Assembly: GCF_036971445.1 (NCBI RefSeq)
Contig: NW_027211947.1
Coordinates: 1 to 64,000 of the forward strand
DNA from: Narcine bancroftii
Taxonomy: Eukaryota
Direction of reading: 5' to 3'
DNA length: 64,000 nucleotides
Shown here one piece after another: positions 21,412 to 59,377 of this stretch. Numbering within the stretch: position 1 is the stretch's first letter; every line of letters starts with the position of its first letter. The translations under genes were made by a program, and so were the position numbers. The notes under the pieces are model-generated. The model saw nothing but the letters and a program-made list of their open reading frames with translations. It searched no databases and had not been told where the DNA came from.

Positions 21412-21663
21412 TCAGCAATATTCCATTCCTTCTTCTCCAAGGTTGAATCCTTCATGAATCTGAATTTCGGTTTTAGTGAAAATCCGCAGCATAAATGATC
21501 CATCGGTGTCTGGTGCAAAGGTACTTGGAATAATGACATAGTGTCCTGGCATCAGTTTGCTATGGAGGGTTATGCTTCTCTGGGCTACATAGGCTCCTGA
21601 ATCTGAAACCTCTGTATGATTTGTAAAATGCTGAGCAGTTAGAACTCTCTGGGGATCATAAGA
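21412..21663 (-). CDS. Atypical calpain, coding exon 12 (last; end of CBSW/C2L domain, stop)
   Basis: ttttaacag acceptor; SYDPQRVLTAQHF...SGAYVAQRSITLHSKLMPGHYVIIPSTFAPDTDGSFMLRIFTKTEIQIHEGFNLGEEGMEYC*. Confidence 0.92.
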   Translation of the reverse strand, partial: SYDPQRVLTAQHFTNHTEVSDSGAYVAQRSITLHSKLMPGHYVIIPSTFAPDTDGSFMLRIFTKTEIQIHEGFNLGEEGMEYC

Positions 21664-21689
21664 CTGTTAAAAAGAAAAATGTACAACTT

Positions 21690-22080
21690 TTAAGGTTAGG
21701 GGGAACATTAGGGGGAGCTTCTTCACACAGGGATGGGGGGGGGGGGGGTTGTGGAATGAGCTGCCAGCTGAAGTGGTGAATGTGGGTTCAATTTTCAGAT
21801 TTATTGTCAGAGTACGGACATGACATCACACACCCTGAGATTCTTTTTCCTGCAGGTAAGGCACTTACTGGTTATGCAAAATCTACACACATATAAACAA
21901 ATTTTTAAAATGTAACACATTTTTAAAAATTTAACATTTGATTAGAATTTGGACAGATTAATAATTGGGAGGGGTGTGGAGGGCTGTGGATTGGGGGCAG
22001 GTCAGTCAGATAAGGTAGAAAAATAGTTTGCCACAAACTAAAAGGCCTGAAGGGCCTGTTTCTGTGCTGTAACGCAGTCT
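21690..22080 (+). mobile_element. CR1 3' fragment with a nested insert
   Basis: Similar to 4720-4960. Confidence 0.6.
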
Positions 22081-22502
22081 GATTCTAATTGCAATTTAAT
22101 TTTTGTGTTTGCTCCTTGCATTGAACGCTGCTTGGAGAACAAACCATTATAAACCCTCATTATAAAGGCGTCTTCACAGAATTTCAAAAAGGTTGTTATA
22201 AAGCAGAATGAGAAAATACGAAGACTCTTTCTGAATGTTTGGAGGCTGGGTTAAAAATTAGGTTTGACTTTGGATGACTTATATCCAATCAAGGCCTCTA
22301 CAGCTAGCAATGAGATGGCACTCGTGCTATATTAATCATGATTGATTAAATAAAACTCGTTAACATTGATGACACATTAGCAGGCAAGTGTGGGTGTGTT
22401 CTGTGTTACATTTACCCTCATTGCCACAGAACAAGTATTCATCGCTGAATAGCTTTGTAAAGAACTATAGTTTTCTTTGCATAATATAAATTTTCAACTT
22501 AC

Positions 22503-22624
22503 CTTGTAAATCTGAATCCCAATGGGACTCATTGAGATTCCAAGCTTCCTGTTCATCCTTTTGTAATTCTGAATTAAACAGATTAGAATAGAACATGCCC
22601 CATCTTCAAGGTCTTCATCACCAT
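22503..22624 (-). CDS. Atypical calpain, coding exon 11 (CBSW acidic loop)
   Basis: cag...gtaag; DGDEDLEDGACSILICLIQNYKRMNRKLGISMSPIGIQIYK; phases 1 and 0 fit the neighbouring exons. Confidence 0.92.
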
Positions 22625-23009
22625 CTGAGTGATAGAGCAGACAAAAAAATAGCTTATTATAATAAATCCTCACTTAGCCAAACAGCTGGAAGAACAAAAA
22701 TAATGAGTGACCAATTGGAATAAAAAGATGAAGTGACATTTTTCAGCCTGTTGTTTTAAAGCACAATGACAAATGTTGAAAAATGTCTTTTCTTCTCTCC
22801 CAGCCTTTTTTATTCAAATGCCTGTCTGCTTTTTGCTCCTACCTTGAAGATGGACTGAAATGTCAGTTATGCATCTTTACCTCCTATGGGCCCTGCAAGA
22901 CCCACTGGGTTCCTCCAGCATTTTTTGCGTTTTTACTACAATCACTGCACCTGCAAACTTTTGTGTTTTATTGCAAGTTTTATTGAAGAAAGAATGGTTT
23001 ATGGTAACA

Positions 23010-24390
23010 CATACCCTTCTTGTTACAGAGTAAAATGAAGGCTAAGGAATTGAAGGAGATGAGTTGTGATGTTCTCAACCATAAGAGACGTACTGGGGAG
23101 GAGGTTTGGCAGCCTTGGAGTGTACTAGAGTGGATAAATACCCAAAGCATAATGAAGTGCATCCTTACCTCTTGTGGGAAGCGAGGGAAGAAATAGCGAA
23201 GGCCTTTGCTAGAATATTGACATCATCTTTGGCCTCGGACAAAGTGTCGCAAGACTGGAGGGTGGCTAATATTGTGCTGTTATTTGGAAAGGGCCGCATG
23301 GAGAAGCCAAGGAACTATGGGCCCGTGAGCTTGATGTCATTACTTGAGGGGATTATGAGGGACATGATCTACTAGAATTTAGCAGATAGGGACTGTTTGG
23401 AGGTGGTTAGCATGGCTTTGCACATGGGAGATCATGTCTCAAGAATAGAAATGTTTTTAAAGAGTGTTGATGAGAACAGGGCAATATTGTATTTATGGGC
23501 TTTAGGAAGGCTTTTGACAAGATCCCACAGATCAGGAGATATATGAAAATTTAGATCACAGGGTCCAAGAGGAGTTGGCTCATTGGATTCAAAAGTAGTC
23601 AGAGGGTAGTAATGGAAAGACATTTCTCGGGAAACTGGGGACAATGCTGGGTCCACTGTTTATTGTCTATAAAAACAATTTGGGTAGCAATCTAGTTAAC
23701 ATGATCAGTAAATATGGGACGACACCAAGGTGGTGTAGTGGACAGTGAGGAAGGATATCTTGGTTTACAAAAAGAGCTTGATCAGATAGGAAGGTGGATG
23801 AAGGAGTTCAAAATGGAATTTAACTCTGACAAGTGTAAATATTACACTTTGGTAGTTCAATCTAGGGCTTACATGGTGAATGGTAGGGCCATAAAAAGTG
23901 TTGTAGAATGGAGATTCTCGGGGGAACAGGTGCATAGTTGCCTGAAATTCCAACTCAGGTGGACAAAGTGTCAAAGAAGGCGCTTGGCACACTTGTCTTC
24001 ATCAGGTGGGGTATTGAGTACAAAAGTTAGGACCTCATGATTCAGCTGTAAAAGGCATTGGTGAGACCATGCTGGAAATACCGTGTGCGGTTCTGGTCAC
24101 TGGGAGAGACTGGGACAGCCTCAGAATACAAAAATCATCCCTTTAGAACAGAGATAAGGAGGAATTTCTTTCCGCAGATGGTGGTCAATCCATGGAATTT
24201 GTTGCCTCAGATGGCTGTGGAGGCCATCTACTTAAAACGGAGGTAGATGAGGAAGGGAATCAAGGGTTATGGGGAGAATGCAGAAGAATGGGTTGAAAAG
24301 GATAGTAAATCAGACATGATGGAATGGCAGTGTAGATTTGATGGGTTGAATGGCCTAATTCTACTCCTATGTCTTAGGGTCTTATGTTAA
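23010..24390 (+). mobile_element. Degenerate CR1 LINE
   Basis: DWRVANIVLLF...NYGPVSL; FNSDKC; RRNFFPQMVVNPWNLLP. Confidence 0.85.
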
Positions 24391-24554
24391 TTCTCAGAAT
24401 ACACTAACTTCCCAGAAGATATTTTTCAGTTAAGTGGAAGAATACCATGGAGATAATAGGTTATAGATGCTATTTCATTCTTCTATATAATGTGTGATTT
24501 GATAGGCAATAAATAATTGACAGTGAGTCCACCTTCTTAAAATATTACCATCTG

Positions 24555-25040
24555 TGTGGAAGCTATGGAGAGGGTGCAGGGAGGATTTATTAGGATGTTG
24601 CCTGAATTGGAAAATGTCTTATGAGGCAAGGTTAGTCAAAGTGGGACTTTTTTTTCTTAGAAGGATGAGAGGAGGCTTGATAGAAGTGTACAAGATTATA
24701 AGAGCCATAGATAAGGTGGACAGCCAGCACTTATTTCCCAGGGCAGATATGGCCAACATCAGACGACATATATACAATGTTAAGGGAGGGAAGTTTAGGG
24801 GAGACAACAGGGATAGGATTTTTTACACAGAGAGTGTGGGTGTCTGGAATACCTTCCCAAGGATGGTGGTGGAGGCTGAAATGTTAAGGACATTTAAAAG
24901 ACTCTTACACAGGCACATGGATGAAAGAAAAATAGAGGGTTATGGGGTAGGTGGATTTAGTTATTTTTTTAAGGAATATATGGGTCGGCACAACATCGAG
25001 GCCTGATGGGCCTGTACTCTGCTGTAGTGTTCTATGTTCT
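24555..25040 (+). mobile_element. CR1 LINE 3' end
   Basis: RRMRGGLIEVYKII...VGVWNTFP. Confidence 0.85.
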
Positions 25041-25360
25041 GAATTAGCTCCCTCTCTGTGCAATGGGGTAGGGAATTGCAGGGTTTATGATGATGAACAG
25101 CGAGTCAGGGTGGTTGGACCTGATTGGACACATCGTGTTCCCATGTGCTTGCAACTCTTGTCCTCCTGGATGTAAGGAGTTCCAGGTTTTCCAGGTGTTG
25201 TTGGCAGTCTTTATGAGTTATTGGTGAAAATCTTGCCACAGGGGTGCAATGGTGGAGGCATCAAACAGCAAAGGTGCGGAATAAATTAAAATTAAATTGG
25301 TTCCTTTGTCCTGGACTATCTTTTGGAAATTGAGAAGTTTACATGGAAGCGCCTTCTTAC

Positions 25361-25483
25361 CTGTTTTTGCGATGGTTATGGGGTATTGAGGGTTACAACT
25401 GTAACTGTTAATATTATTTCTGCATCCACCTGCATTTATTCCAATCACCCACTGACACTTCACTTCTTTCAAGCTGCCAGCAT
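25361..25483 (-). CDS. Atypical calpain, coding exon 10 (CBSW start)
   Basis: ttacag...gtaag; DAGSLKEVKCQWVIGINAGGCRNNINSYSCNPQYPITIAKT (W....AGGC.N....NPQY motif). Confidence 0.93.
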
Positions 25484-26023
25484 CTGTAACCAACAGAAAA
25501 TGTTAAGCATGTCCTGAACAACAGTCTCCATTCTTCATATAAATTTCAAACTTGCAGGCAGTCACACAAGCAACTGCATGTTATCAGTGATGCATGCAGA
25601 AGGACAATTTGGAAAACAAAACCCTGCTGCATTTTAATGTGGTGTGCATATTAAATGCCTATTAAAGATACAAAAAACTGACAAAATTCAGCAAAATTTC
25701 TTATTGAATGTAATCAATAGTGTGATCATTTAGAGGAGTTAAGTGATGAGTTAGATTTACTGCCTATGGGGTCTCCAGGGTCATAAGGACCGGGCTAGAA
25801 GATGAGTTGAGGGAAAAGGTCAGATCAACCCTCCCGAGTGGCTGTGAAGATGCTGCTCCAAGATCTTATCTTTATGTGGAGAAACAAACTAACAGATGCA
25901 TGTCTAATTAAGCAATGCATAGAACAGCATTTAGTCATTCTGGTAAAAGGTTATCTGTAGCAAGGTTGAGAGTGGTGAGAGGGACAAGGGCTTAATCATT
26001 ATCAGATTTTCAACAAACTCTCA

Positions 26024-26859
26024 TGTCATAACTGTTATCTTAATGAGGTTTGTCCAGGCGATTGCATGTTCTTCTTCCTTCTAAGTTGCTGGGTTCTGCA
26101 TTTTGTGACAAGAGTATTTAGAGGTGGTTTGGGAGGAATTGTTCGAGCAGCTTGCACACACACATTTTAAAGCACAGAATATTTGAAGGACTTTTACAGA
26201 ATGCTTTTTGCAGGAGGCAACAAAGTATCGACAGCAGCTTGCCTGGGAGAGCATGTGATCTTTGCAGGCAGAGGAGAAGAGTTTTGCTCTCAGAGAGGGA
26301 GGGTATGAAACAGAGAGAGAGAGAGGAGACAAATCAGTTCAAGAAGGACAAGCTAGCAAACTTTGGAAGGCTGCCTGGTCGAAGGAGAAGACTGGCAGTG
26401 TGAAAGGTGACCTGAAAGAAAGAGGATCATCTGGAGAACCCTGAAGGGGGCAAGTTTCATCAGCAAGACTGATTGAGAAGGAATCAGTTGCGGATGTCCT
26501 GGAAAAGGAATCTCTCTCTCTGAAAACCAGCAAGAACCCTCCTGAGTGGTGACCATTTGCCTGTTAAGCACCAAAGGCTGGTGAACTTTGTTAATGCTAA
26601 CTTCTGTGCACAGTACAAGAATTGCCTGCAACCAGTGAGATTGGACTGTGATCCAAAGAACTTTTCTCATCTTAAATGTGCATTGCACACATCTGCGCTT
26701 AGTGTTAGAGGTGGGGGGAATTAAGTAGTTAGGTAGGTTAAGTGATAAGTTCAATTCTGCTTTCTTGTTCAAATTAAAAACAACTTTTGTTTATATAACG
26801 CTGTGTCGTGGTGCATATCAATTGCTGTTGGTTTTTGGGCTCCTCTGGACTCCGTAACA
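26024..26859. mobile_element. Putative solo LTR
   Basis: TGT...AACA termini and LTR-like composition; no TSD recognised. Confidence 0.35.
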
Positions 26860-27223
26860 TTTTGCTCATGTTCACTGCAGCAGTTCTACATAGCACTTCT
26901 GACTGATTTACTTCAAGATTTGGCTTCAAGATTGATCAGACCAAACCTACTCCTACAATAATCCTGCTCCAGAAGATTTTCTAATGAGTGGTAAAAGGCA
27001 AAAGCCTAATGTTCATTGTTTGACAAAGGGTTTTTGGCCTGAAACATTAACTCTGTTTCTACAGGTTCTCCCTGATCTGCTCAGAATTTCTACCATCTCC
27101 TCATTTCTTTATGGGTACCCGGCATCTGTAGTTATTTTTTAATGTGCATTACCTCTGAAGAAGGTGTCAGGAGCAATATTTCCTTCTCCCCACCTTCATT
27201 AAGAATACATTTCTTTTTATTAC

Positions 27224-27309
27224 CTGCTCCTCCGTCATCATCAAAGTCGGGGCCCAGTGTCAAAACTGTGATATTTGCAAACTTCTGGCAAAAGTCATCA
27301 AATTTCATC
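27224..27309 (-). CDS. Atypical calpain, coding exon 9
   Basis: cacag...gtaat; (W)MKFDDFCQKFANITVLTLGPDFDDDGGA. Confidence 0.92.
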
Positions 27310-27407
27310 CTGTGAATTAGATGCAATGACGGTATGAGATGCAGCGAATTTGCTACAAAAAGTGTAATCATGAAGTAATATAAAGTAAGTTCTCTGAAGT
27401 ATCCCAC

Positions 27408-27485
27408 CAGAATTCTCCATCCGCCTTCTTGGTAAATCCAAATGATTCCCTTGTCCAGAATGGGATTTGATTCCATAGAGGTGAA
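27408..27485 (-). CDS. Atypical calpain, coding exon 8
   Basis: aaag...gtggg; (D)SPLWNQIPFWTRESFGFTKKADGEF(W); 98-bp intron follows. Confidence 0.9.
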
Positions 27486-28119
27486 CTTTTGAAAAGAATG
27501 GACATTATGTTGATTAACACTCGTCTTTCTAAATATCTTAAGGCAGTCACATCCCTTCTTCCGAAGAAGTAGTCAGAAAGTACTGACGGTCATCGCAAAG
27601 GGTTTTAGTTTGGCAGAATTCTCCAAAACAAACACTAGGGATGACTATGCTAGGAAAAAAGGCATTTCCAGTTTTGACATTTCTGAATTGCTATGTGCTT
27701 GCATTTAAGATTTGTTGATAATTAAACAGAGTTTTTTTTCCTATCTAAATCATCATTAATATTATCAGTGAATTTCTATTTGAAAAGCAGAGAGATACCG
27801 TGTTTAAAAAGTTAATAATACCCAATTAAGATAGCAGAAATTAAAACGTCTTATGACCCACGCTGACTTTTACAGATCAACATCCCTTGGGGCAGGAGCT
27901 AACAGCCTTGGGTATGTGTTAACAGCAGTCTAAAATATCAATTGGGAATCAGTTTTTTATTTACCATCTGGTTAAATCAAGAATTAATGTGAATGGCAGA
28001 CTGTTTCTACCATTTGGGGAATGCATTAAAGTATTTGGAGAGGATTTTTTTGGACAACCCAGGTCAGACCACCTCCAGGATTAACTCCATGTTTCCTGTG
28101 GAGGTAAAGTTAATTGGTA

Positions 28120-28680
28120 TTCAGGATATTGACCAAACCATAGAATGCGTGGACAGAGAGGTACCACTCTAACTGTACAAGACAGCAAGAATAGTGTAAT
28201 TTATGGACACCACATTACAGAAATGATGAGGTTGCGCAGGAGACTAACTTGGACGTTGCCAGGTATTTTCTGTTATGATTAAGGTTGCCTTTGTGGAATT
28301 GTTTTCCTTGAAATGAAGAAGACTGAGGGGAAATTTAATTCAGATTCATAAATTTATGAGAGACTTGAGAGGATGAACAGGATGGACCCACTTCCCTTAG
28401 CGGAGAGGTCGATAATGAGGGAACATTGTTAATCAACAGAAAGAACAGAAGGGAGCTGAGAAAAGAAAATCCCACCGAGTGGTGGCTTCTGTAACTCACT
28501 GCCAGAGAGGGTGATGGAAGCAAAAACCTCACATTTGAAAGGTACCTGGTTGAGCACTTGGAGAGTCTGGACCTGGAAAGACACGGATCATAAGAATTGG
28601 AGTGGGATTAAACATAATAGATCAATTTTCCTAGAATGGACATGATGGGCTGAAGAGCCTCCTTTCTGTGCTCTAAATTA
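28120..28680 (+). mobile_element. Old CR1 3' fragment
   Basis: Degenerate similarity to the other CR1 tails in the window. Confidence 0.55.
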
Positions 28681-28903
28681 CAATGACTACCACAGACAAC
28701 TAATTCATGACATTGTTTCGGAGCCTACATAACAATGACCTTCAACTTCAGCATTCTCACTTGGATGAAGATGAGGCTTGTGGTCATTAAGCCACGCATA
28801 AATACAGACTTCAGAATTACACTGCACCCTATGAAAAATTGGAGGTACTCTATTATAAAATTAGGGCATAGTATTGATTGTTTAGAACAACCCAGGCATT
28901 CCT

Positions 28904-29778
28904 CACTGGTGTCACTATGGGGGTGCAGGGGGTTTGGACCACACTGGGTGACACCATCAGAGAGGGTGACATCAAAATGACTCTCTATAAAATTTTTGTA
29001 CATTGTTTCAGCAGAAATTTATTATTTTTTATAAAAATATCCCTGTAGTTAGTTATAACAACAAAAACATGTCTCATAAACCCAGTTTACATGTATCAAT
29101 GTACCTACAAGGCTAAAACTCGATGCAAATTTACTTTTTGAACCTTCTCAAGTTGGAGCTGTCATTATAACCCAATTACAATGATCCTTTGAATCACGCG
29201 CATGATATTGTAATTTAAAGGTGTAATTTTAATTTTGCTTGTTGTTTATCTCACTACTATAGGTGCACCAAAGAAAAGGTACAAGGACTGCCTAAAGAAA
29301 TCTCTTGGTGCCTGCCACATTGACCACCGCCAGTGGGCTGATATCGCCTCAAACCGTGCATCTTGGTGCCTCACAGTTCGGCGGGCAGCAACCTCCTTTG
29401 AAGAAGACCGCAGAGCCCACCTCACTGACAAAAGACAAAGGAGGAAAACCCAACCCACCATTTTTCCCCTGCAGCCGCTGCAACCGTGTCTGCCTGTCCC
29501 GCATCGGACTTGTCAGCCACAAACGAGCCTGCAGCTGACGTGGACTTTTACCCCCTCCATAAATCTTCGTCCGCGAAGCCAAGCCAAAGAAGAATAGCCA
29601 TTATATTCAGTGATCTAAAGGAATTATGATTTACAAGTAACATTAGGTACAAAAAAGCATTATTAAGGATTCTGTATGGTCGAGTATGGGAGGAGATCCT
29701 GGGGTGGGGGGGGGGGGGGTGGGATGGTGACACCATGAGTTATCGCACTGGGTGACACCAATCCTAGTGATGCTACTG
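28904..29778. mobile_element. Non-autonomous DNA transposon (hAT-like CAGTGGCGTCACTAGG-type ends) interrupted by an RTE insertion
   Basis: Imperfect TIRs CACTGGTGTCACTA / TAGTGATGCTACTG; partial second copy at 36660-36845. Confidence 0.55.
29262..29595 (+). mobile_element. RTE-clade LINE 3' end (longest copy)
   Basis: GAPKKRYKDCLKKSL...W...A..R..W, zinc knuckle FPCSRCNRVCLSRIGLVSHKRAC*, GAA tail. Confidence 0.85.
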
Positions 29779-30231
29779 CTTTCCATATTGAGACATCCCT
29801 CCTTTATGTACATGATAATATTAGTAATCTCAAAATTGATTCTATAATGGAAAAGCTCCAAAAGAAGGAGAATCGTAAATCAGTACTTTAACTCCTTGTG
29901 ACCTTTTCCCAATTGTTGGTACTGGTATTTGATTGGATGTGGGATTCAATCATCAGACCTGGTGGATAAGCTGTCTCCACTTATTAAAAAAATACTTTAA
30001 ACTGTTTTGGGATACTTTCTGCAGAATTGTACAGGTTGTACCTCTTTAATCCGGCGATGGGTATAAGGTATGGATTGGGTTTCTTAGAGTTTTGTTACAA
30101 TGTTTCAGGAAATGAAACCTTCCTTGTGTTGTCCAAAGATTTCCATGATTCCCTGAGGGAAATGAAGTGTGACATTCTTTTCAAATGGGAGAGGCAGGAG
30201 TTTATGTCTTCAGCTAAGAAATGCAAACTTG

Positions 30232-30741
30232 TCCACTTCAAAAGACGTGGGACCCTTTATGGACTATTGCCATAATCTACAGAGTTAGGGTCGTTTAAAG
30301 TGCTTTGATGCTGCGCTGTCGAGTTTCAGGTTGTTGTCACTTGATTTCCACATATCATTTCCTAACCTTGCTGAGTGGTCAGGGTTTTTTTCTTTTTTAA
30401 ACTGGATAATATAACAGATAATGGCTCAGCCCAATCATGAAAAATACAAATTTTGATAAAAACTTTACAGAATGAGAAGTAGCAAAAGAAAATGATATAC
30501 TTTTTCTTAAAGAAAAGGCATAATTCATTAGAAAAATAACTTTTCTTTCCTTTATTTCTCTTTTGGGTTTGTTTTTCTTTTTGTTTGATATATTTTACTA
30601 CCACTATTACCAATGAGTGTTGGGCCTTTGAATTATGTTCATATTTGAAATCTTTTTCCCATATTTTCCCATACAATTGCACATTGTATAATTGTGTCGT
30701 TCTATTTTTTATATATTAAAAACCAATAAAAATATTTTTTA
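30232..30741 (+). mobile_element. L1-like 3' tail with 16-bp TSD
   Basis: AAGAAATGCAAACTTG at 30216-30231 and 30742-30757; AATAAA near the 3' end. Confidence 0.7.
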
Positions 30742-30898
30742 AAGAAATGCAAACTTGGTAGCTCCACCCATGACACAGGCAAAGGAGAGATAGGACTATG
30801 TTTATACAGTACTTGACTAGAGAGCCAAATTGATCCACAGTTCTACAGAGAATTGCCAGCTGTCAACCCCTTGTATGCTCAAATGGTAACGTATTGAA

Positions 30899-30999
30899 AT
30901 TCACTCAAAGCTTCCATAGAATTGTCTGAGATGAGAGTAAAATATACATTTTTTAATTACATAAGGAACTGGAGACAATTAGGTAGGAGGTAGTTCATT
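30899..30999. repeat. Arm 1 of a perfect 101-bp inverted repeat
   Basis: Exact reverse complement of 32047-32147 by manual comparison. Confidence 0.92.
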
Positions 31000-33366: not shown

Positions 33367-33461
33367 TCGTCACCCCAGTCCCCTGTCCATTCCATGTTTT
33401 TCCCTGATCCCCATGGATTGAGAATCCGAACAAGGGGCACTCTTCCTTTTGGAGTAGTTAG
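33367..33461 (-). CDS. Atypical calpain, coding exon 7 (catalytic Asn)
   Basis: tttag...gtaagt; LTTPKGRVPLVRILNPWGSGKNMEWTGDWGD. Confidence 0.95.
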
Positions 33462-34205: not shown

Positions 34206-34277
34206 CTTTTTAACTGCAGTAACTCCATAGGCATGCCCAGCAATTAAACCATCTTGGTTTTCATATCTGTTATCTCC
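34206..34277 (-). CDS. Atypical calpain, coding exon 6 (catalytic His)
   Basis: tttag...gtaat; GDNRYENQDGLIAGHAYGVTAVKK. Confidence 0.95.
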
Positions 34278-36845: not shown

Positions 36846-36855
36846 TCTATCTTAC

Positions 36856-37036
36856 CCTTCCTGTTCCACAGGCCATTAGAGCATTCTTCCTGGAGGCAGC
36901 AGCAAGACGATCGTACAGTTCCTCATATCGATCTGCGTAGTCTGAGAATCTGTAAATTTCACCCACACCACCAGTGAGGTCAGTCAGGGCATCCAGCGTC
37001 CATCCTCCTTCAATCGCTTTATATGAACCATGTAAC
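36856..37036 (-). CDS. Atypical calpain, coding exon 5
   Basis: cacag...gtaag; (K)LHGSYKAIEGGWTLDALTDLTGGVGEIYRFSDYADRYEELYDRLAAASRKNALMACGTGR. Confidence 0.95.
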
Positions 37037-39045: not shown

Positions 39046-39073
39046 TGACGAGTCGTTGATCAGATTTACTTAC

Positions 39074-39257
39074 TTTGCAAATGCCTTTTCAAAAAGCGAT
39101 GGCCAAAATTCATTGCTGGCTTCTGATCGAGCATAAATAAGTTGTCCATTTCTTGTTGGCAAATAATCATCCACCAAAATTTCTACCCATTTCCCAAATT
39201 GCCAGAATCGGAAACGAAAGATTCCATAGTATGGAGAGCTGCCGGTGATAAACTGGC
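39074..39257 (-). CDS. Atypical calpain, coding exon 4
   Basis: tacag...gtaagt; GQFITGSSPYYGIFRFRFWQFGKWVEILVDDYLPTRNGQLIYARSEASNEFWPSLFEKAFAK. Confidence 0.96.
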
Positions 39258-41233: not shown

Positions 41234-42437
41234 CTATCATCCCAAACCCTTCTCTGTTATCCTGTAGGCTACAGTATAGCAGATTGTTTCTTTCCTACTC
41301 ACTCTATAGTTTTCATAATTTTACATGAATGCAGATTCTTTTTCCAAAATGACTCCAGCTCAGCCAATGTGAACTCAGATTTAGTAAGCATGCCAATATC
41401 CTCAGTGGGTGACACACCGGTCAATTATTTGTGGGTTACAACATTCATTTCTTTGTAATATAGCTGAGAACAGTTTGATCGAATTATTTCTTTGAATACA
41501 GCAACATTGAGAGAAAAAAATGAATGTTTGGCTTGTGGCACTTCTGAGTTGGATGAAAAATATCCAAGACTATTCCAGACAGACCCAGTTGAAGTTGAAA
41601 CTCTACCTTTGAATAATCAGTTAGTGTCCAGATTGGTATTTGTATAAAAATGGGGGAATAGTTCATCTCCCCTTTATACAGGCTGTTTAGGTTTATTTGC
41701 ATTCCATCAAGGACAGTTAATCCCAAAGACGATAGGAAACCACTGCTGCCATTTCTCCTTACTGATTGCCGAGAATAAGCAATGTTTATGTAAGCTCATA
41801 AAAAGCTTGCAGTGGGTCCACAGCAGCTTGCCTTAGGGCAGAGAACGTGTTACTTCCTCAGAATATAGACCAATATTATGTTTGCAGTTATATATTTACT
41901 TCTACCATGCAAGAGGGATTCACTATCCAACCATTCACCATCCAAGACATTGCTGTAATTTGGAAATGTGAATTCAAAGACTGAGCTATTTAGCTTCAAA
42001 TCTAATATTATGACTTCTAATCACATGAGATGTATGTAGGTGTACTAAAAATAATTATGTTCTCTCTGAATCTTTCAACCAGAAAATATACTTTGTAATT
42101 TGAACAAATTCACACAATTGACAAAAACATTAACCTTTAATAATAATTTGTTGACAATTGTGATGTTTAAAAAGAGAAAATAGAAATATTTATTAGTTTT
42201 TGTGTTCAGACAATCATCTTCAACTGTCTATCATCCGTTGAAACTTTTCTGACCAAAGTCTTTCTGCAAGCCTACACTTGCAAATGGGATTTTGTGATTC
42301 ATTAAGAAATTAATTAAATATGGATGATGGGTTGAATCATCAACCTGTGTCTTAGGTGAATGGTATAATAATTAGCAGATGGTGGAGAACTGATAAACAA
42401 GAGCAAACCTTTCACGTGGTCAAGTATTTCTGAATCA

Positions 42438-42840
42438 GGTACCCCTTTCACACTGATACTTCAAGCCGGGTATAATCCGCCTTTAATATGCCTACCCTCA
42501 CCTACCTGTATAAATGCGATGAAGGCAGATTGGGGGTGTCATTTCAGTCCTGTCTTTTATCCGCCAAGCGAGGTAGTATCAGAGGCAAAGCGGGCGAGTG
42601 TAAAAGGGCAAGCCATGTTGCCGGGTCCAAATGGGAAAGGAATGTCCTGCCTCTTTTGCTCCAGGAAGCCGACTTGTCATGTAAAAGGACAAGTCGGCTT
42701 CCTGGAGAAAAAGAGGCGGGACATTCCTTTCTCGTTTGGACCCGGCATTTCTTCTGTTCTGTGTAAACAAGAAGCCGGCTTCCAGAGACTAGTCATGTAT
42801 TCAGCAATAATGCAGATTTTTAATGTAAAAAGAGTACAAG
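42438..42840. mobile_element. PIF/Harbinger-like MITE with an internal 127-bp hairpin
   Basis: Ends GTACCCCTTTCACACT / AATGTAAAAAGAGTAC; repeated TGTAAA motifs; palindrome at 42620-42746. Confidence 0.55.
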
Positions 42841-43049
42841 ATGTTTAAGGGAACTCCCCTGCAACTTCTCTCTGGATGGAAATAGCAGCAGAATTTAACC
42901 ATGTAATCAATCCAAAAGGGGACTGGTTACTACAAGAAATACCTCTCAGCTCCTTATAATCCTAATCTCACAGCTCATTTGGCATCCCAGAGTCAGGATG
43001 TGATGAATAAAATCATGTACAATTACACCTAGTGGTCGTTTGAGTAATC

Positions 43050-43254
43050 AAGTAAAACCACTGGTATCTGGCACCCATCGAGATTTGTAAATGCAGGTAA
43101 GTAAATTTTCTGATTGCTTGAGATTACCTGTTATGTGATGAGTGAACTGATGGTGAGGCATGCCATTTTTATACATCTGTATTTTTTACCTATTTATTTT
43201 CTGATTTTTTTTTTTTGCCGGTTGTTCGAATTCTGGATAAAAGAGGCTTTATTG
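43050..43254. mobile_element. Tc1/mariner MITE, copy 3
   Basis: Homologous to 14537-14730. Confidence 0.65.
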
Positions 43255-44061
43255 TCATTAGCGGTACATAAAATTATCCCAGCAGAGTGATTTATTTTGT
43301 GCTTTAATACCGATACATTAAAAAATGAGAAAGGAGCAGGAGCTGGCCACAGTATTCTGGCTCATGTCCTCTTCTGAGCCATTCCCCATAGCCCTCAATT
43401 CCCTGACCATTCAAAAACCTATTTACTACCTCTTGAAATACCGTCAATGAATTAGTTTATACATCCTCTCAGGTCTAGAATTTGAGAGATTCATACTGTT
43501 CATGACAAGAGGTTTTTATGTGGTCCAATGTTGTAAGTGTCCCCTCATTTGAGGTAATCCCACTTAATTTTTCATGGATTTATTTTTAAATTATAATGAT
43601 TAATATACTGCTATTTATTTGGTGATAATATTAATGCTGATCTGATTTCCAGAGAAATCTGGATGTGTTTTGTGATTTGAAACATTTTTTGACAGATTTT
43701 TAAGTTTATCTTTCCATTCTACTTATTTCTTTTGTCCAATTTAAAAAACGTGATAACATTTTCAGATGTAACAATGTTATCTGCTGTTGTACTGAATTAA
43801 ATAGAATGAATATTTCATTAAAGTATAATCTGTCGATGAAATAGGATAACAATCCTTCTGTCACACTGCTGGCAAAAGTCCAGGTTGGTGCAGAATTCTG
43901 GTACCAATCCTGACATAGACCAAGCAAATACTTGAATAACTAACTCTTCAAATGCCTTACTCTTTTATATTTGTCCTTCGAATTAAATTTCACCCTTCAT
44001 GAATGCATTAAACTATTGTTCATTCAGGTCCCTATAAAATATCAGAAAGTTGGGCAAAAGG

Positions 44062-44287
44062 TTAATTTTATTAACTCTTCACTCTTTATTTTGGGGGGAG
44101 GAGGGCTGGACTAATTTTAAGTTAGATTACTAATATTGTGTTACAATTAACGGGGGGGGGGGGTTATTTTGTGTAGTTTTCTGATGCAATATTGTAATCA
44201 TACCATTTTAATTTTTTAAAAATTTTTCTTTAAATGTAATTCTCTATTGTATTTATGTTATAAAATTTTAAATAAAGTCTTCAAAAA
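44062..44287 (+). mobile_element. L1-like 3' tail with 16-bp TSD
   Basis: AAAGTTGGGCAAAAGG at 44046-44061 and 44288-44303; AATAAA plus A-tail. Confidence 0.7.
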
Positions 44288-45155
44288 AAAGTTGGGCAAA
44301 AGGCATTTAAAATGCCACTGGCTTCCTCCCAGAAACATGTGCTACAGAAAAAAAATTATAGTTTATACAGCATATGAGAATGATAGCATAATCAATTTAG
44401 TGCAATTGTTGACACTTTGATGGGTAGCAATCACAGAAGGTGATCATCCTTTTAAAGGCATATTTCCCTGACCACTAGACATTTAATGCACATTTAATGG
44501 TTTTCATGGAGGAGAGAGAAAAAAAGAAAGAGAGCTTCACAGTTCAGGCAAAATGACATCAAAATGCAGATAAAGGTCAGAAAGGATATTGATATGAGGT
44601 AGCTATTAGAAGACCCTTACAGTTAGCTCTAGATCTCTCCTCCAGGTCTTGATTTGCCTGGTAACCTCATGCTGTGGTGATATTTACTATTGGTTACCAT
44701 CTTTGGCCTGCCTCCGTGCTGACTGCATCAGTGATTCCTTCCCTTGGAATCCCCTAATAAAGGCTGTTACGGCCAGACCTCTCCCCCAGTATAAACTCTG
44801 GACTCGGGCCAAGCAACATGAGTGTACATACAGTTTTAAGCAATTAAAGCCTACCGTTCTGGCAACTTTTAGTCTTTGAAGTTGATAGATTTTGGAATAA
44901 GGCATCTGTTTCACAAATCTAATGTTGGCCATGCAAATTACAACTCAAAGCAGCCAAATGAATTTAATTAAAGTCTCAGTTCTGGGGATATTGACCTGAA
45001 CCATTGTTCTGCTGCCCTTTATAAGAGGCCTGTATAACTTTATTTTTTTTTTTAGTTTTGTTTGCAGTTACATTTTAAAAAGCTAATTCAAAATATTAAT
45101 TTGGGAACTACAATATGAACAATAAAGTCTCAGTTTTAAAAATATTATTTCTTAC

Positions 45156-45300
45156 CTGATGGAATAACCCTCTCTGTTAATCTTTTGTATTTGGCTATTG
45201 TAGCCACTGATGCCCAAAACCAACAGTCCCCCAGCTCACCCTGCACAATATCACTTTTGCTAACTCCATCTGTCATAAAGAAAGGATTTTCGTGCAGGTC
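45156..45300 (-). CDS. Atypical calpain, coding exon 3 (catalytic Cys)
   Basis: ctag...gtaag; DLHENPFFMTDGVSKSDIVQGELGDCWFWASVATIAKYKRLTERVIPS. Confidence 0.96.
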
Positions 45301-45369
45301 CTAGAGCAAAGAAATAACAGACATGTAAATTGAACACTCCTCCACTCTTCAGCATTTCATTGTTCTTTG

Positions 45370-46035
45370 GTTTTAAAATATTTTTATTCATTTTAATAAA
45401 GAAGTTATACAAAATAAAAGGTACAATTCAATAAGATGATATGGAAGGTTACGCAAACTTAATAAGGCATTCTGTGTAACAAAAACCTACAAATTGTAAA
45501 TTATATCCATAATTCATATTATAAATAGTATATACCTTTTTGGGAAAAAAACCTCTAATAATACAAAAAAATTAAAATAGTAAAGGAGAAAAATTCGACC
45601 TTACCTTACCTATATGATTAGTATTCAAATAAAAATGAAGGTAGAAAAAAGTATTAATATAAGGAACATGGAAAAGACAATTTAATTACATTGAAGTGAA
45701 ATTATGAAGTAAGATGGTGAGTCATAAATGACTCCAATAACCTCTGGAATCTCATATTTGAATTATTAATTGAATAACAAATCTTTTCCATATTCAAACA
45801 GGACGCGATGTCACACAACCACTGATCATGAGTAGGCGGGGCATCATCCTTCCATTTAAGTAAAATCGTGTGCCTCGCCAAAAGAGAAGGAAAAGAAATG
45901 ATGGGTCTCTGAAACCAGGGACAAAGAAGATCATCACCTCCTGTTGTGCCAAAGAGAGCTATCAAAGGATTCGGTGTTAAATCAATATTTTTGATAAAGT
46001 ATGGAAAATCTCTCTCCAGTATTTTTCTAGACAAT
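45370..46035 (-). mobile_element. L1 LINE ORF2 C-terminus and 3' UTR
   Basis: PNPLIALFG...LLARHTILLKWKDDAPPTHDQWL. Confidence 0.75.
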
Positions 46036-46894
46036 AAGAAAATAAGTCTAGAAAAATTATTAATAAGAATGAATTGTTAGCATTTTGAAATTTACAGAAC
46101 AATATAATGAAGCACATTAGGTCTGTGATAAAGCTGTCCATTTAATTCCATGACCATCCCATCAGTCTTCTCTCTCTCACAGACATTTTCCTTCAACATA
46201 TTTATCTCAAGATTCAAAATTCAATTTATTGTCATGTAATAAAAAACACATTATATAACACGAAATTGCCTTTTGACTGCTATAAAAGAGATAGGAAGAA
46301 TTTGCCTGAAGCACCGCTTACAGTCAGAGAAAGAGAAGCAAAAGAGAGACCACAGCTCCCCACCAACAGAATCACTGAACATTTGTGGAATTGCCTCCAG
46401 TGCTCCCGCAAACTCCGCGGCCACACAAGAGTCCAGTTCAAATCATTGCCATCTCGAGCACCAGATCCAAACTTCCGAAATGATAAGGAACCCTTAAGCA
46501 TCCTTGGCACCTTCTCGCGTCTCAGATCCAATACCTGGTTACCCCTTCAGCCAGTTTCAAGCCAGTGTCCAGCAGTCCGCAACCTGGTGTGAGTTCCTTC
46601 ATCGCAGTCTCCAGCAGCGTGGCTTTGTCACCTCGAGTCACCAACAGCCTGCTGCCTGTGTGAGTCCATCAGCCGCAGAACCCCTCATTGGCCTGGTGCA
46701 GTGGTCACCATCCTCTGCTTCTCCTTCTCAGACGAGGGGTGGGGGGATGGTCTCCCTGTTTTCTGGTGCCCTGCACCAGTCCTCCGCTTTCCAGGAGAAT
46801 GCAAACCCCTTGAGGCTGCAGCTGATCAGAGGCACCTGATCAGCTGGATGAAGACTCCACAGTTACGGGATTTTAAATAAAATCAATTTATCTC

Positions 46895-47118
46895 GGGCAG
46901 CAGCCTCCTTTGAAGAAGACCGCAGAGCCCACCTCACTGACAAAAGGCAAAGGAAGAAAAACCCAACACCCAACCCCAACCAACCAATTTTCCCTTGCAA
47001 CCGCTGCAATCGTGTCTGCCTGTCCCGCATCGGACTGGTCAGCCACAAACGAGCCTGCAGCTGACGTGGACTTTTTACCCCCTCCATAAATCTTCGTCCG
47101 CGAAGCCAAGCCAAAGAC
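46895..47118 (+). mobile_element. RTE-clade LINE 3' end
   Basis: Near-identical to 32425-32650. Confidence 0.85.
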
Positions 47119-47689
47119 ATCACCTCCACTATAAGGAAATGTCTCCAGGCAGTTTGTTTCAGAGAGGCAAAAAAATGTTGCAAGCATATATATATATAAT
47201 CATATAACAGTTTATGGCATGGAAACAGGCCATCTCGGCCCTACAAGTCCATGCTAGTTCACTCAAACAACTCCGCTAGCTCCCCCGCCTATTCTCCGCC
47301 CATAACCCTTCAACCCCCTCTTATCCATGTATATATCCAGCCTCCTCTAAAGTGACTCTGCCTCAACTATTTCCTCCAGAAAATTATTCCATCCAGCCAC
47401 CACTCTCTGTCTTTACGGAGTTTGTACATTCTCCCCCTGTCTGTATAGGTTAAGAAATTGACTGCCCATGGAGCATTCAGGAAAGTGCAGTAAAACACAA
47501 CAGAAAATGCTGAAAGTGTTCAAGAGATCAGTGGCCTTTTGGAAAATGTAAGGTCGAGCTTTCATCTTGTGGTTTTCATTGTGAATTAATTTCTGCTGAA
47601 TGGGATTTTAAATTATACACCCAAAGTGTTTATCATTCTATTTCTGACTGACTCTTTAACATTCCAGTTTCTTTGCCTTCATTTTATTT

Positions 47690-47807
47690 CTTCTTTTCTT
47701 CTTTGGCTTGGCTTCGCGGACGAAGATTTATGGAGGGGGTAAAAAGTCCACGTCATCTGCAGGCTCGTTTGTGGCTGACAAGTCCGATGCAGGACAGGCA
47801 GACACGA
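47690..47807 (-). mobile_element. RTE-clade LINE 3' end (short, inverted)
   Basis: TTCTTTGGCTTGGCTTCGCGGACGAAGATTTATGGAGGGGG, reverse complement of the same family. Confidence 0.85.
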
Positions 47808-48164
47808 TCCCTTGACAAAAGACCATCAAATTTGTAAATGATTTGAATGAGACTGAGGTAGAGTCATTTCTTTTCCACTACTAATTGTCCATGGGACAAT
47901 GCCATTATACTTTTGTGAAGAAATAGAGCCAAACAAGAGCACTGACTGATCAATATTCCATTCCATCTAACATAGAGTAACATGGATAGATAATTGCATC
48001 CATTTTGCACTGTTGCCTAAAATAAATTTCCCACACCACATCAGGAAGAAAACCCTAATCTTCTCAGTCACTTCATTTCCAATGGCCATTTAAAACTCCA
48101 GAATATTTTTGCATAATTGTTTTTTATGACGAGACAAATCAGAACAAGGCCAATTTGTAGTTAC

Positions 48165-48296
48165 CACGGTGCGAATCCATTTGATTCCTTCTGGGACCAC
48201 ATGTTCATAGGTTAACGATGAAGGCTCAGGAAGAAAATCAGGATCTACCCAGAGTTCTCCAGTCACTTCAAGTTCTTTTATAATATTCTGATAGTT
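48165..48296 (-). CDS. Atypical calpain, coding exon 2 (start of CysPc)
   Basis: attcag...gtaac; NYQNIIKELEVTGELWVDPDFLPEPSSLTYEHVVPEGIKWIRTV (DP.F.P...SL...W.R motif). Confidence 0.92.
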
Positions 48297-48519
48297 CTGA
48301 ATAAAATGAAAAAAATATTAGTACCAAGTGTCACACTGGCCGTGTTTCTACTGAGCGATGAAAATTCGGGGCAATGCGAGGTGATGCGAGGTGATACAAG
48401 GTGTCCCAGTAGAAACACGTACATTGCAGACCAGCAGCAATAGAAATTCACCAAGACAGTGTGATTTTTAAACAATATATTTATTAATAACTACTAATAA
48501 TATATTAATTAAATTAATC

Positions 48520-48523
<4 letters not shown>

Positions 48524-48570
<47 letters not shown>
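48524..48570. repeat. (TG)n microsatellite
   Basis: Direct observation. Confidence 0.95.
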
Positions 48571-48577
<7 letters not shown>

Positions 48578-50467
48578 TACCCAAAACATTACAGCTTAGG
48601 CACAATTCTAGAAAGATATTCCAAAGTTCAGTCTTGGAAATCCTGTCTTGAAACACAGGCTTTTAAACTGATGCCCAGAAGTAATCACGAAGGAGGTGGG
48701 AGAGACTGAGTGACCGACTGCTGAAAACTCACAAATCCTCGTCGAGTTTCTTGCTGAGAAATATACTTTTGTGTGAACGGTGGTCACAACCCTCCTTTTC
48801 CTTGCATAGGGGAATTGAAACGTGTGACTTCCACGATGCTTCCACAACCCAGGTATGGGTCAGTCGAAATGACCATTACTTTGGTCACAATCCGATACAG
48901 AAATTCTCCAGCATCCAAAACCCAAGGAGGTCAGTCAAAGTGACCTTTCCTTTGGCCACGGTGTGGTTCAATAATTCCCCTGACATGGAGAAACAGCCGA
49001 GTTGTCCATTTCACACAGAGTCACTCCACCTTAGATGGCTGATGGTCAATAATGTTTCCTTCAGTGATCCATCAGTATTCCACCTGTGTCCCTGGATAAA
49101 GCAACAAATGTTCTTTCTCTTCCTCCAGAGTATCAACTTTGGGTATAGGCTGTACTAGATATTGACACCCAGTCCCTCCACATCTGTGAATGGTTGCAGC
49201 CAGTACAATCCCTTAAAATGATACTCACACTAAATGAAATGAAAGATCATAATACAAGATATGTAAGTTGATTTTACATCCATAAAACCACCTGATATCT
49301 GAATTCTAGACATTAATATTTTAAAATAAATTACCAAGGAATCTCCAATGTAATTTTTGATTGTGTGTTTAGCTATTCTGTAGGGGAATTAAAACTTGCT
49401 TCTGTATTAGTATGATACTAATGTTGAACACAAAGTCCATTTGTAAAGCTATCAGATTATTTTAATTTAATTGTTTGATTAAGAAATTGTATGATTCAAA
49501 CGTGCTGATGTTTTCAAGCTTCTTATTATTTTAAAGGTGAATTAATCCATTAATTGTGGAGTCAATGACAACAAAAATGATTTCTAAATATTAGGACAAT
49601 GTTTGAAATAACTCAAATGCCTTACAATGAATTGAAACATTTTCATTTAATTTTACTCCCACCAATCACCAATAAGTAATGAGTGTTTCTTTGGTGGGTT
49701 ACACATTTGAGCAAGCTAAAAAAAACTCACAAAACAATAGAGACCAAATGTCAAAAATGTAATCATTTCAATGTTTTTTACCTCACATTATTATTCACAG
49801 ACCTGAATCAGGAATATGAATGTACAGATTTAGAAGTGAATCCTGAAATGTTTCTTAGATGTTTACTTAATTATATAATCTTGAGGTGTGGTGGGGGGGG
49901 GGGGGGGGGAATGTAGAAGTGTATTACATTGGTCTCAATTATAAAACCAGCATCATCTTTGTTAAGGTTGTGGTCAGTTTAAATTGCAATCACTTATAAA
50001 TGCATTTCAGTTTATAAAGGTATTAACAAAGAATGTTCTATTACCTATGTAAAGTATGGAAACAAACTAATATAGAGCCGAAGAGTTATAGAGTAGATTA
50101 ATTTAGTTTATTTATATAGCACATTTAAAACAACTCATGTTGACCAACGTGCTGTACAGATTATAAATTACATCTTGACTTAAGCAGCTATTTAAAGTGC
50201 GGTATAAAACAGGCTTACTTCCATGCCTGTGCATAAGTAAATACCAAGGGGCCCAGGGCGATTCAGTATGTTTAACTTTACTCTGGTGAACAATTATGAG
50301 AAATTTTACAGATTTAAAAACTTTACCTTGCAACTACCCAATGTAACTAAAACAATGAACTTCAAAAAGATTTCAATCTTTCAAGGACAAATTGTAAGAA
50401 AATGTAAAATGCAGTTTGCATAAATCAGGCCAAGTTTTGACAGTAAGTGATATGTAAAAACGATTAC

Positions 50468-50743
50468 CGATTCAATAATTAGGTTGTCGTCTATTTTCAG
50501 CATTTCATTCACTTGATTCATTAGTTCCTCAATGTCATTCTTTCTAGGATGAAAATCAAGAAGAGCTTTCACATCCTCCGTGAGCATATTCCATTTTGAA
50601 TTGTCCCCTTTCACTTCTGACACTTTGTCTACTTTCATCTCCAGCACTCTCTTGCCATTACTGTTGCTTATGGAGGATGCATCTGCCTGTATGAAATGAA
50701 TTTGAGTTACAGTAGTATGGGTACATGAACAACTGTTCCCCAT
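50468..50743 (-). CDS. Atypical calpain, coding exon 1 (92-aa N-terminal extension with MGNSCSC)
   Basis: ATG immediately preceded by in-frame TGA; acceptor ttaacag at 50785/50784; donor TCG|GTAATC in phase 0 matches exon 2; no domain homology, so the link is inferred. Confidence 0.72.

Positions 50744-59182: not shown

Positions 59183-59377
<195 letters not shown>

What the first reader, a model, noticed from the sequence alone, without database searches (positions are those of the whole stretch)
21412..50743. Intact calpain with a non-canonical architecture: N-extension + CysPc + CBSW, no penta-EF-hand or C2
Seen: 12 GT-AG exons (276+132+145+184+181+72+95+78+86+123+122+252 = 1746 nt) join in frame to 581 aa. 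The catalytic QGELGDCW, GHAY and NPWG motifs are present, as are residues equivalent to the CysPc Ca2+ ligands (SDIVQG, NEFW, EW, WGD, DGEFW). The protein stops about 20 aa after the end of CBSW, with no convincing donor before the TGA and only repeats and the TLCD2 3' end beyond it. Known: CAPN1/2/3/8/9/11-14 end in PEF, CAPN5/6 in C2, CAPN7/10 have two CBSW domains, and CAPN15 has Zn fingers and SOH. Inference: this fits none of the named vertebrate calpains and may be a distinct subfamily that does not need the small subunit.
Basis: partly seen in the sequence, partly recalled or inferred. Interest (0 to 1): 0.88.

Follow-up and report, generated by a model that had tools for sequence, protein, structure and literature searches.

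The report
Overlooked ancient calpain lineage in fishes
This is an intact, spliced and transcribed gene for a short calcium-protease (calpain) that belongs to none of the named vertebrate calpain groups but groups with a 'truncated' calpain family so far described only from invertebrates; sharks, rays, sturgeons, bichirs, coelacanth and lungfish have it, and the family's conserved signals suggest it is likely held on membranes by fatty-acid tags and may carry an extra calcium loop in place of the usual EF-hands.

Summary
Confirmed: 12 GT-AG exons on the minus strand give 581 aa, Peptidase_C2 + Calpain_III only, catalytic triad intact. From residue 20 on it equals RefSeq 'calpain-A-like' XP_069768840.1 (electric ray). 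RNA contigs are spliced, and their lengths put the 3' end at the AATAAA 1.2 kb past the stop, leaving no room for PEF or C2 exons. Orthologues occur in 14 genera of cartilaginous, basal ray-finned and lobe-finned fishes; none from teleosts or tetrapods was listed. Trees place them with Aplysia TRUNC1 and amphioxus, tunicate, echinoderm and arthropod proteins (the invertebrate 'Truncated' family of Hastings 2017). AU tests reject grouping with CAPN5/6, classical calpains or CAPN10. The rooted monophyly of the family is unresolved. Two family signatures were not found in the papers searched: an N-terminal MGxxxS/T myristoylation-type motif (20 of 30 vs 3 of 122 other calpains) and a Dx[DN]xDG loop (24 of 31 vs 0 of 136). 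Correction: the RNA contigs skip the MGNSCSC start and use an upstream exon. Verdict: real, new vertebrate member of a weakly described family; anchoring and the calcium loop are predictions. No earlier scan note on this gene.

The parts
50468..50743 (-).
   Evidence: first 17 residues 14-17 of 17 identical in 6 of 6 fish orthologues compared; part 50687-50743 not in the listed RNA contigs
50468..50686 (-). Exon 1, short form via internal acceptor at 50686
   Evidence: Listed RNA contig pieces 50468-50685 in X1-X3, 50486-50685 in X4; AG acceptor
53682..53858 (-). Alternative upstream exon with ATG at 53702 (MTVPTLV start, no Gly2 or Cys)
   Evidence: Listed RNA pieces in X2, X3, X4; gives RefSeq XP_069768840.1 exactly
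50913..50918 (-). TATA-like hexamer 175 nt upstream of the ATG at 50743; candidate proximal promoter for the long form (inference)
   Evidence: no function shown
48165..48296 (-). Exon 2 (132 nt), start of CysPc
   Evidence: bridged by length in RNA contigs
45156..45300 (-). Exon 3 (145 nt): catalytic Cys162, PC1 Ca2+ site Asp153
   Evidence: listed RNA pieces in X3, X4
39074..39257 (-). Exon 4 (184 nt): NEFW, Glu234
   Evidence: RNA pieces
36856..37036 (-). Exon 5 (181 nt)
   Evidence: RNA pieces
34206..34277 (-). Exon 6 (72 nt): catalytic His321
33367..33461 (-). Exon 7 (95 nt): catalytic Asn345, PC2 Ca2+ site Glu354, Asp361
27408..27485 (-). Exon 8 (78 nt): Asp384, Glu386 (DGEFW)
27224..27309 (-). 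Exon 9 (86 nt): end of CysPc and family linker loop D409-x-D411-x-D413-G414
25361..25483 (-). Exon 10 (123 nt), CBSW start; Asp417 (loop position 9)
22503..22624 (-). Exon 11 (122 nt), CBSW
21412..21663 (-). Exon 12 coding part (252 nt), CBSW end and TGA
20168..21411 (-). Inferred 3' UTR, ending near the AATAAA at 20199-20194
17967..18365 (+). Neighbour: last exon of a TLC-domain gene (TLCD2 by position), converging on the calpain
57616..59377 (+). Neighbour: first coding exons of PRPF8, head-to-head with the calpain
   Evidence: PRO8NT; PROCN in L009

Best explanation
This is an intact, transcribed CysPc+CBSW-only calpain, likely the jawed-fish orthologue of the ancient bilaterian 'Truncated' calpain family, and predicted to work as a small-subunit-independent, Ca2+-switched protease whose long isoform is likely held on membranes by N-myristoylation plus S-palmitoylation. 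Shown: gene structure, splicing, domain content, catalytic Cys162/His321/Asn345, acidic residues at the aligned CysPc Ca2+ sites, fish orthologues, grouping with Aplysia TRUNC1 apart from TRA and classical calpains. Inferred: (1) Ca2+ at the two CysPc sites aligns the active site as in calpain-1/2; (2) without PEF there is no CAPNS1 dimer; (3) Gly2 is myristoylated and Cys5/Cys7 palmitoylated, replacing the membrane-targeting role of C2 or PEF; (4) the Dx[DN]xDG linker loop between CysPc and CBSW binds a further Ca2+ and tunes activation or domain packing; (5) the RNA-supported MTVPTLV isoform lacks the anchor and would be soluble; (6) the gene was lost from the TLCD2-PRPF8 interval in mammals and probably in other tetrapods and teleosts. 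Odds: family assignment about 0.85, active Ca2+-dependent protease about 0.85, acyl anchor used in the family about 0.75 (in this species about 0.6), Ca2+-binding linker loop about 0.5.
For: Structure and expression. Domains. AlphaFold model from a 150-row alignment, pLDDT 86.7, best matches Ca2+-bound m-calpain 3BOW/3DF0, rmsd 2.5-2.7 over about 490 columns. Residue mapping to calpain-1 by alignment and conservation in the 13-row family alignment. Orthologues. P0249 is XP_005105403.1, listed as AplTRUNC1 in S1 Table of PMC5650170 and is rank 4 of 150 in the profile search. Trees: 31-row clade with support 98 among 177 rows; split from TRA+classical 99/99, 92/99, 100/100; fish rows plus invertebrate truncated rows not rejected, p 0.39, while four rival groupings are. 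MGxxx[ST]: 20 of 30 family rows that start with Met vs 3 of 122 others; with a Cys in residues 3-10, 16 of 30 vs 1 of 122. Strict Dx[DN]xDG at the linker: 24 of 31 vs 0 of 136. 30 of 31 family rows end 8-27 residues after the last CBSW strand motif. Precedent for acylated calpains: Plasmodium calpain (PMC2746569, abstract), CAPN5 (bioRxiv 2022.01.25.477766, abstract).
Against: No biochemistry for any member. The listed RNA contigs (4 samples, 1 study) lack the MGNSCSC segment; in X1 and X2 the depth of that bin is fully explained by the short form (my arithmetic), and the Heptranchias and Hemitrygon models also start downstream. When rooted on the single CAPN15-like row the truncated family is an unresolved polytomy; the fish clade has a long stem (0.5-1.05); only one CAPN10-like row and no PalB row were in the IQ-TREE sets; Hastings' own support for the wider clade was 36. 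The profile used to find the invertebrate relatives already held three of them, and both motif patterns were defined after seeing the sequences; kin share motifs, so the counts are not independent. Polyodon and Antedon rows lack the first Asp of the loop. Models from Hemitrygon, Chiloscyllium, Scyliorhinus and Callorhinchus are partial (153-323 aa), so decay in some lineages is not excluded.
Confidence: 0.72

Rival explanations
1. A vertebrate classical calpain (or CAPN5/6) duplicate that lost its PEF or C2 domain early in jawed fishes, and resembles invertebrate truncated calpains by convergence or long-branch attraction.
For: Best solved-structure matches are classical calpains; long stem of the fish clade; truncation of classical calpains has happened repeatedly (PMC5650170; unrelated truncated rows); one intron position (after the GHAY exon) is shared with classical genes.
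Against: AU rejects fish rows + vertebrate classical (p 1e-6), + all classical (0.025), + CAPN5/6 (1e-9); shared linker and N-terminal motifs with the invertebrate family and absent from other calpains; no intron inside QG|ALG or after HFQ as in the classical locus; fish rows group with amphioxus at 88/77.
Confidence: 0.08
2. Same family assignment, but in this species only the soluble MTVPTLV isoform is made, so the protein works as a cytosolic protease; the linker loop is structural and binds no calcium.
For: RNA contigs and both RefSeq isoforms use the upstream exon; Heptranchias model has a different start at the same junction; calpain linkers are acidic in general.
Against: The skipped 17 codons are 17 of 17 identical to Chiloscyllium and 14-15 of 17 to skates, sturgeon, paddlefish and bichir while the following residues diverge, which points to selection on a translated product; contigs drop rarer variants; X3 and X4 have unexplained extra depth in that bin; a TATA-like site lies 175 nt upstream.
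Confidence: 0.17
3. The gene is the single-CBSW sister or parent of CAPN10, so both are one vertebrate subfamily.
For: The CAPN10-like row falls on the truncated side of the split; Hastings et al. raised a link between CAPN10 and the truncated family.
Against: A clade of fish rows + the CAPN10-like row is rejected at p 0.012 (one long-branched row only); the CAPN10-like piece lacks the linker motif (but that row is pieced from exon hits); separate locus and two CBSW domains.
Confidence: 0.1
4. Assembly or annotation artefact: the gene continues into PEF or C2 exons missing from this 93-kb scaffold, or is a pseudogene.
Confidence: 0.02

Closest known systems
Bilaterian 'Truncated' calpain family (AplTRUNC1, XP_005105403.1; Hastings et al. 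2017, PMC5650170)
   Same: CysPc + one CBSW only; groups with AplTRUNC1 in all trees apart from TRA and classical calpains; shares the GPDFxxDG linker and MG-x-x-x-S start.
   Different: The paper reports members from molluscs, Limulus, sea urchin and amphioxus and sampled only human, Xenopus, zebrafish and one Fugu protein among vertebrates; it reports no vertebrate member, has no occurrence of 'myristoyl' and calls function an open question.
Classical calpains CAPN1/2 (MEROPS C2)
   Same: CysPc-CBSW fold, triad and acidic Ca2+-site residues (ligand list recalled from Moldoveanu et al. 2002).
   Different: No PEF, hence no expected CAPNS1 dimer; Arg104 equivalent is Lys; 3-residue insertion after NPWG; different intron pattern; 33-34% identity.
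CAPN5/CAPN6 (TRA-3 family)
   Same: PEF-less vertebrate calpains; CAPN5 is S-acylated and membrane-bound (bioRxiv 2022.01.25.477766, abstract).
   Different: No C2 domain; separate loci in this genome; grouping rejected.
CAPN10
   Same: PEF-less; falls on the same side of the unrooted split.
   Different: One CBSW instead of two; separate locus; sister grouping rejected at p 0.012 with one row.
Plasmodium falciparum calpain (PMC2746569)
   Same: Works-like precedent: myristoylated at Gly2 and palmitoylated at nearby Cys, which sets its location (abstract).
   Different: Not compared by sequence here; very long N-terminal domain, nucleolar; no orthology claimed.
C. elegans CLP-1 type and crustacean CalpM (recalled)
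   Same: CysPc + CBSW without EF-hands.
   Different: Not tested directly; other truncated crustacean-like rows (P0039, P0048, P0049, P0067) nest among classical calpains and lack both family motifs.

Membership tests
Calpain superfamily (peptidase C2) | CysPc domain with Cys-His-Asn triad | tested here: met
Calpain superfamily (peptidase C2) | Ca2+-dependent proteolysis | not testable with these tools
   Side-chain ligand equivalents D153, E234, E354, D361, D384, E386 present; ligand list recalled
Bilaterian Truncated calpains (Hastings 2017) | Isolated catalytic + one C2L/CBSW domain | tested here: met
Bilaterian Truncated calpains (Hastings 2017) | Groups with AplTRUNC1 and deuterostome/arthropod truncated calpains, apart from TRA and classical | tested here: met
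   98; 99/99; 100/100; p 0.39, not rejected
Bilaterian Truncated calpains (Hastings 2017) | Rooted monophyly of the family | tested here: inconclusive
   Polytomy when rooted on one CAPN15-like row; the paper's figures could not be seen, only the AplTRUNC1 accession was matched
Classical calpains (CAPN1/2/3/8/9/11-14, 17) | C-terminal penta-EF-hand | tested here: not met
Classical calpains (CAPN1/2/3/8/9/11-14, 17) | CysPc-CBSW clade with classical calpains | tested here: not met
   AU p 1e-6 and 0.025
TRA-3 / CAPN5/6 | C-terminal C2 domain and clade | tested here: not met
   No C2 hit downstream with a working control; AU p 1e-9
CAPN10 / CAPN7 (two CBSW; MIT in CAPN7) | Tandem CBSW domains, MIT | tested here: not met
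   One Calpain_III stretch, no MIT; separate loci
CAPN15 / SOL | Zn fingers and SOH domain, no CBSW | tested here: not met
   separate locus on C24
Dual-acylated (myristoyl + palmitoyl) proteins | MGxxxS/T start with nearby Cys | tested here: met
   Long form only; (consensus recalled)
Dual-acylated (myristoyl + palmitoyl) proteins | Lipid actually attached, and the long form expressed in this species | tested here: inconclusive
   Not in listed contigs; lipid attachment cannot be tested here
Dx[DN]xDG Ca2+ loops (PMC3123361) | Dx[DN]xDG in a loop with a later acidic ligand | tested here: met
   D409-F-D411-D-D413-G414, D417; coil between strands in the model
Dx[DN]xDG Ca2+ loops (PMC3123361) | Bound Ca2+ | not testable with these tools
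   Needs structure or calorimetry

The most novel reading that the evidence does not exclude
Animals have a further ancient calpain lineage, present since the bilaterian ancestor and kept in non-teleost fishes, that is tethered to membranes by N-terminal myristoyl and palmitoyl groups and uses a Dx[DN]xDG linker loop as an extra Ca2+ sensor instead of PEF or C2; elasmobranchs switch between anchored and soluble forms by alternative first exons, and mammals lost the gene from between TLCD2 and PRPF8.
Probability: 0.4. Interest if true: 0.75.

Novelty: new member of a known kind. Interest (0 to 1): 0.58.

Why it matters
Reviews list vertebrate calpains as classical, CAPN5/6, 7, 10 and 15, and describe them as cytosolic (passages of PMC4043111, PMC10762896, PMC13413365). 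This adds a lineage that the jawed-vertebrate ancestor likely had and model organisms appear to lack, hidden under the label 'calpain-A-like'. It firms up a weakly supported invertebrate family with two sequence signatures, and gives a minimal natural calpain (CysPc+CBSW) for testing how calpains are activated and brought to membranes without PEF, C2 or the small subunit. It also bears on where CAPN10 came from.

Tried and rejected
First AlphaFold job on a 13-row alignment failed (pLDDT 28) and was not used. PEF profile scan of the 21 kb downstream found nothing but its control was weak (E 0.006 on one exon), so it carries little weight. ESM Atlas gave only generic calpain clusters. The look-up of sequencing runs listed no holder on record as RNA; the runs are treated as RNA only because the contigs are spliced. 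Joint tables were swamped by repeats. G000:C21:105.17 Mb was checked as a chromosomal copy of this gene and is instead a two-CBSW, CAPN10-like gene. Ambystoma 'calpain-11-like' P0016 and teleost 'calpain-1-like' P0078/P0090 were considered as members and fall among classical calpains. Weak Pfam hits on the N-extension (Phage_gp38, HAMP) are under cut-off and ignored. Paper searches for a description of this vertebrate gene found none; one search was uninformative and subscription journals are not covered. Earlier scan notes: nothing by sequence, one unrelated bacterial calpain by words. dN/dS was not computed (no orthologue DNA held). No complex prediction was run. Rows left out of trees: 15 of 45, 19 of 45, 16 of 45 (long or redundant rows); 8 near-family rows were set aside from the motif counts and are listed.

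Full report
Observation. The gene lies on the minus strand of the window, which is the first 64 kb of a 93,035-base scaffold. All 12 exons were found with the stated sizes and GT-AG ends and join to 581 aa with one terminal stop. Pfam finds Peptidase_C2 and one Calpain_III domain, nothing else over cut-off. Cys162, His321 and Asn345 are in place; aligned to human calpain-1, the acidic side chains of the two CysPc Ca2+ sites map to D153, E234, E354, D361, D384 and E386 (ligand list recalled from Moldoveanu et al. 2002; numbering counted by me on the alignment), and the Arg104 equivalent is Lys151. These positions are conserved in the family rows that cover them. An AlphaFold model of the RefSeq form (150-row alignment, pLDDT 86.7) matches Ca2+-bound m-calpain best (rmsd 2.5-2.7); residues 1-35 are unstructured and two low-confidence helices precede CysPc.

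Identity and expression. Exon 4 is 100% identical to RefSeq XP_069768840.1, 'calpain-A-like' of Narcine bancroftii. In four coded runs of one study, contigs carry exon-only pieces in register: exons 5, 4 and the short exon 1 on one contig in X1 and X2, with a 278-letter gap that fits exons 3+2 (277 nt); X3 and X4 show exon 3 pieces (19.9 kb laid, exons 6-12 were outside it). The X1 and X2 contigs hold 2052 and 2072 letters beyond exon 5; minus 828 coding bases this puts the 3' ends at 20188 and 20168, just past an AATAAA at 20199. The share of words of 20000-23000 held by these runs, 0.52 and 0.51, fits 0.53 and 0.54 expected from exons 11-12 plus such a UTR. So the stop exon is terminal; this is arithmetic on contigs, not a read-through. 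No C2 hit lies in the downstream 21 kb while the control loci score E 7e-14; the PEF scan was too weak to count.

Two N-termini. X2-X4 list a piece of an upstream exon (53858-53682) joined to an internal acceptor at 50686, which gives exactly the 569-aa RefSeq protein starting MTVPTLV. Yet its first 17 residues are 17 of 17 identical in Chiloscyllium and 14-15 of 17 in two skates, sturgeon, paddlefish and bichir, while the next stretch diverges. I read this as a conserved coding start with an alternative, anchor-less first exon; that the long form is made in this species is not shown.

Range. Orthologues (58-83% identity where long enough) were listed for Amblyraja, Leucoraja, Hemitrygon, Heptranchias, Chiloscyllium, Scyliorhinus, Callorhinchus, Acipenser, Polyodon, Polypterus, Erpetoichthys, Latimeria and Protopterus, 14 genera with Narcine. 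Four chondrichthyan models are partial. No teleost, holostean, tetrapod or lamprey member was among the rows listed (26 of 26, 120 of 122, 120 of 2136, 150 of 29045); these searches are incomplete and 50% clusters can hide members, so absence is weak evidence. The gene sits between a TLC-domain gene and PRPF8; in rat Tlcd2 and Prpf8 are consecutive at 62.79 and 62.81 Mb in a 19-gene table (PMC4501283, passages) and consecutive in a human 17p13.3 gene table (PMC5876250, passage), which supports loss in mammals. The window's genome has separate loci resembling CAPN5, CAPN6, CAPN7, CAPN10, CAPN15 and classical calpains (labels mine).

Family. A profile of the fish proteins plus three invertebrate hits retrieved CysPc+CBSW-only proteins from amphioxus, tunicates, hemichordate, echinoderms, annelids, molluscs, bryozoans, tick, shrimp, ostracod and cockroach. 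One is XP_005105403.1, AplTRUNC1 of Hastings et al. 2017 (PMC5650170; I saw the abstract, passages, part 1 of 2 of section 15 and S1 Table, not the tree figures). That paper proposes a bilaterian Truncated family at weak support and sampled no shark or basal fish. In FastTree (177 rows) the fish clade (100) lies within a 31-row clade (98) with AplTRUNC1, next to amphioxus and tunicates. IQ-TREE separates these rows from TRA+classical calpains at 99/99 (45 rows), 92/99 (30 rows, mixture model, CAPN10-like row on the truncated side) and 100/100 (29 rows, long rows left out). Rooted on one CAPN15-like row the family is a polytomy. AU tests on 26 rows reject fish + CAPN5/6 (p 1e-9), + vertebrate classical (1e-6), + all classical (0.025), + CAPN10-like (0.012), and do not reject fish + invertebrate truncated (0.39).

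Signatures. Of 30 family rows starting with Met, 20 start MG and all 20 are MGxxx[ST], 16 with a Cys in residues 3-10; of 122 other calpains 13, 3 and 1. This is the N-myristoylation consensus (recalled) with a palmitoylation-type Cys. Several family rows without it are partial or alternative models. At the CysPc-CBSW linker 24 of 31 rows have strict Dx[DN]xDG and 25 of 31 the looser form with a D/E/S/T/N at position 9, against 0 of 136; this is the pattern of a known Ca2+ loop (PMC3123361, passages, no mention of calpain). Both patterns were set after inspection and related rows are not independent. 30 of 31 rows end 8-27 residues after CBSW.

Mechanism. Most likely a monomeric, Ca2+-switched modulator protease: Ca2+ at the CysPc sites assembles the active site (by homology; the CAPN5 core is active without CBSW and C2, PMC7001764 passage), no PEF means no CAPNS1 pairing, and the long isoform is held at membranes by two lipids, as shown for Plasmodium calpain (PMC2746569, abstract) and, for S-acylation, CAPN5 (bioRxiv 2022.01.25.477766, abstract). 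The linker loop may add a Ca2+ site. Substrates and tissue are unknown.

Novelty. The proteins are in databases as 'calpain-A-like'. Searches found no paper that describes a vertebrate member or the two signatures; passages of PMC4043111, PMC10762896, PMC13413365 and PMC3315469 did not mention one; subscription papers and unseen figures or supplements may. Verdict: a real gene, a new vertebrate member of a known but barely studied family, with testable new predictions. Interest 0.58.

Noticed in passing
window 28545-28571 (-): RefSeq isoform X1 has a 27-nt cassette exon that inserts 9 residues right after Asp361 of the PC2 Ca2+ site, which could alter calcium activation.
   Followed up: no
window 55300-55750: GC/CpG-rich stretch with a CCGGAAGT ETS-type motif between the calpain's upstream exon and PRPF8's first coding exon (57616): looks like a shared bidirectional promoter; a strong minus-strand donor lies at 55139.
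   Followed up: partly
L025-L026 (G000:C17:9.44-9.46 Mb): The CAPN6-like gene of this genome keeps catalytic Cys, His and Asn, unlike eutherian CAPN6.
   Followed up: no
window 21415-21440 (-) and orthologues: Several fish members end with Cys near the C-terminus (Narcine, lungfish, sturgeon, bichir) though not as a CaaX box; skates and Heptranchias lack it.
   Followed up: no
window 33400-33420 (-): Fish members carry a 3-residue insertion after NPWG relative to calpain-1/2, beside the active-site cleft; may affect substrate choice.
   Followed up: no
window 50468-50600 (-): Two predicted helices (low confidence) before CysPc, the first partly conserved from rays to bichir; candidate anchor or autoinhibitory segment.
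   Followed up: no
G000:C15 (62.1, 244.0, 254.2 Mb): At least five classical-type calpain loci on one chromosome, three within about 35 kb.
   Followed up: no
P0002, P0004, P0005, P0007: Models of this gene in Hemitrygon, Scyliorhinus, Chiloscyllium and Callorhinchus stop after exon 4 or 5; incomplete annotation or decay cannot be told apart.
   Followed up: no
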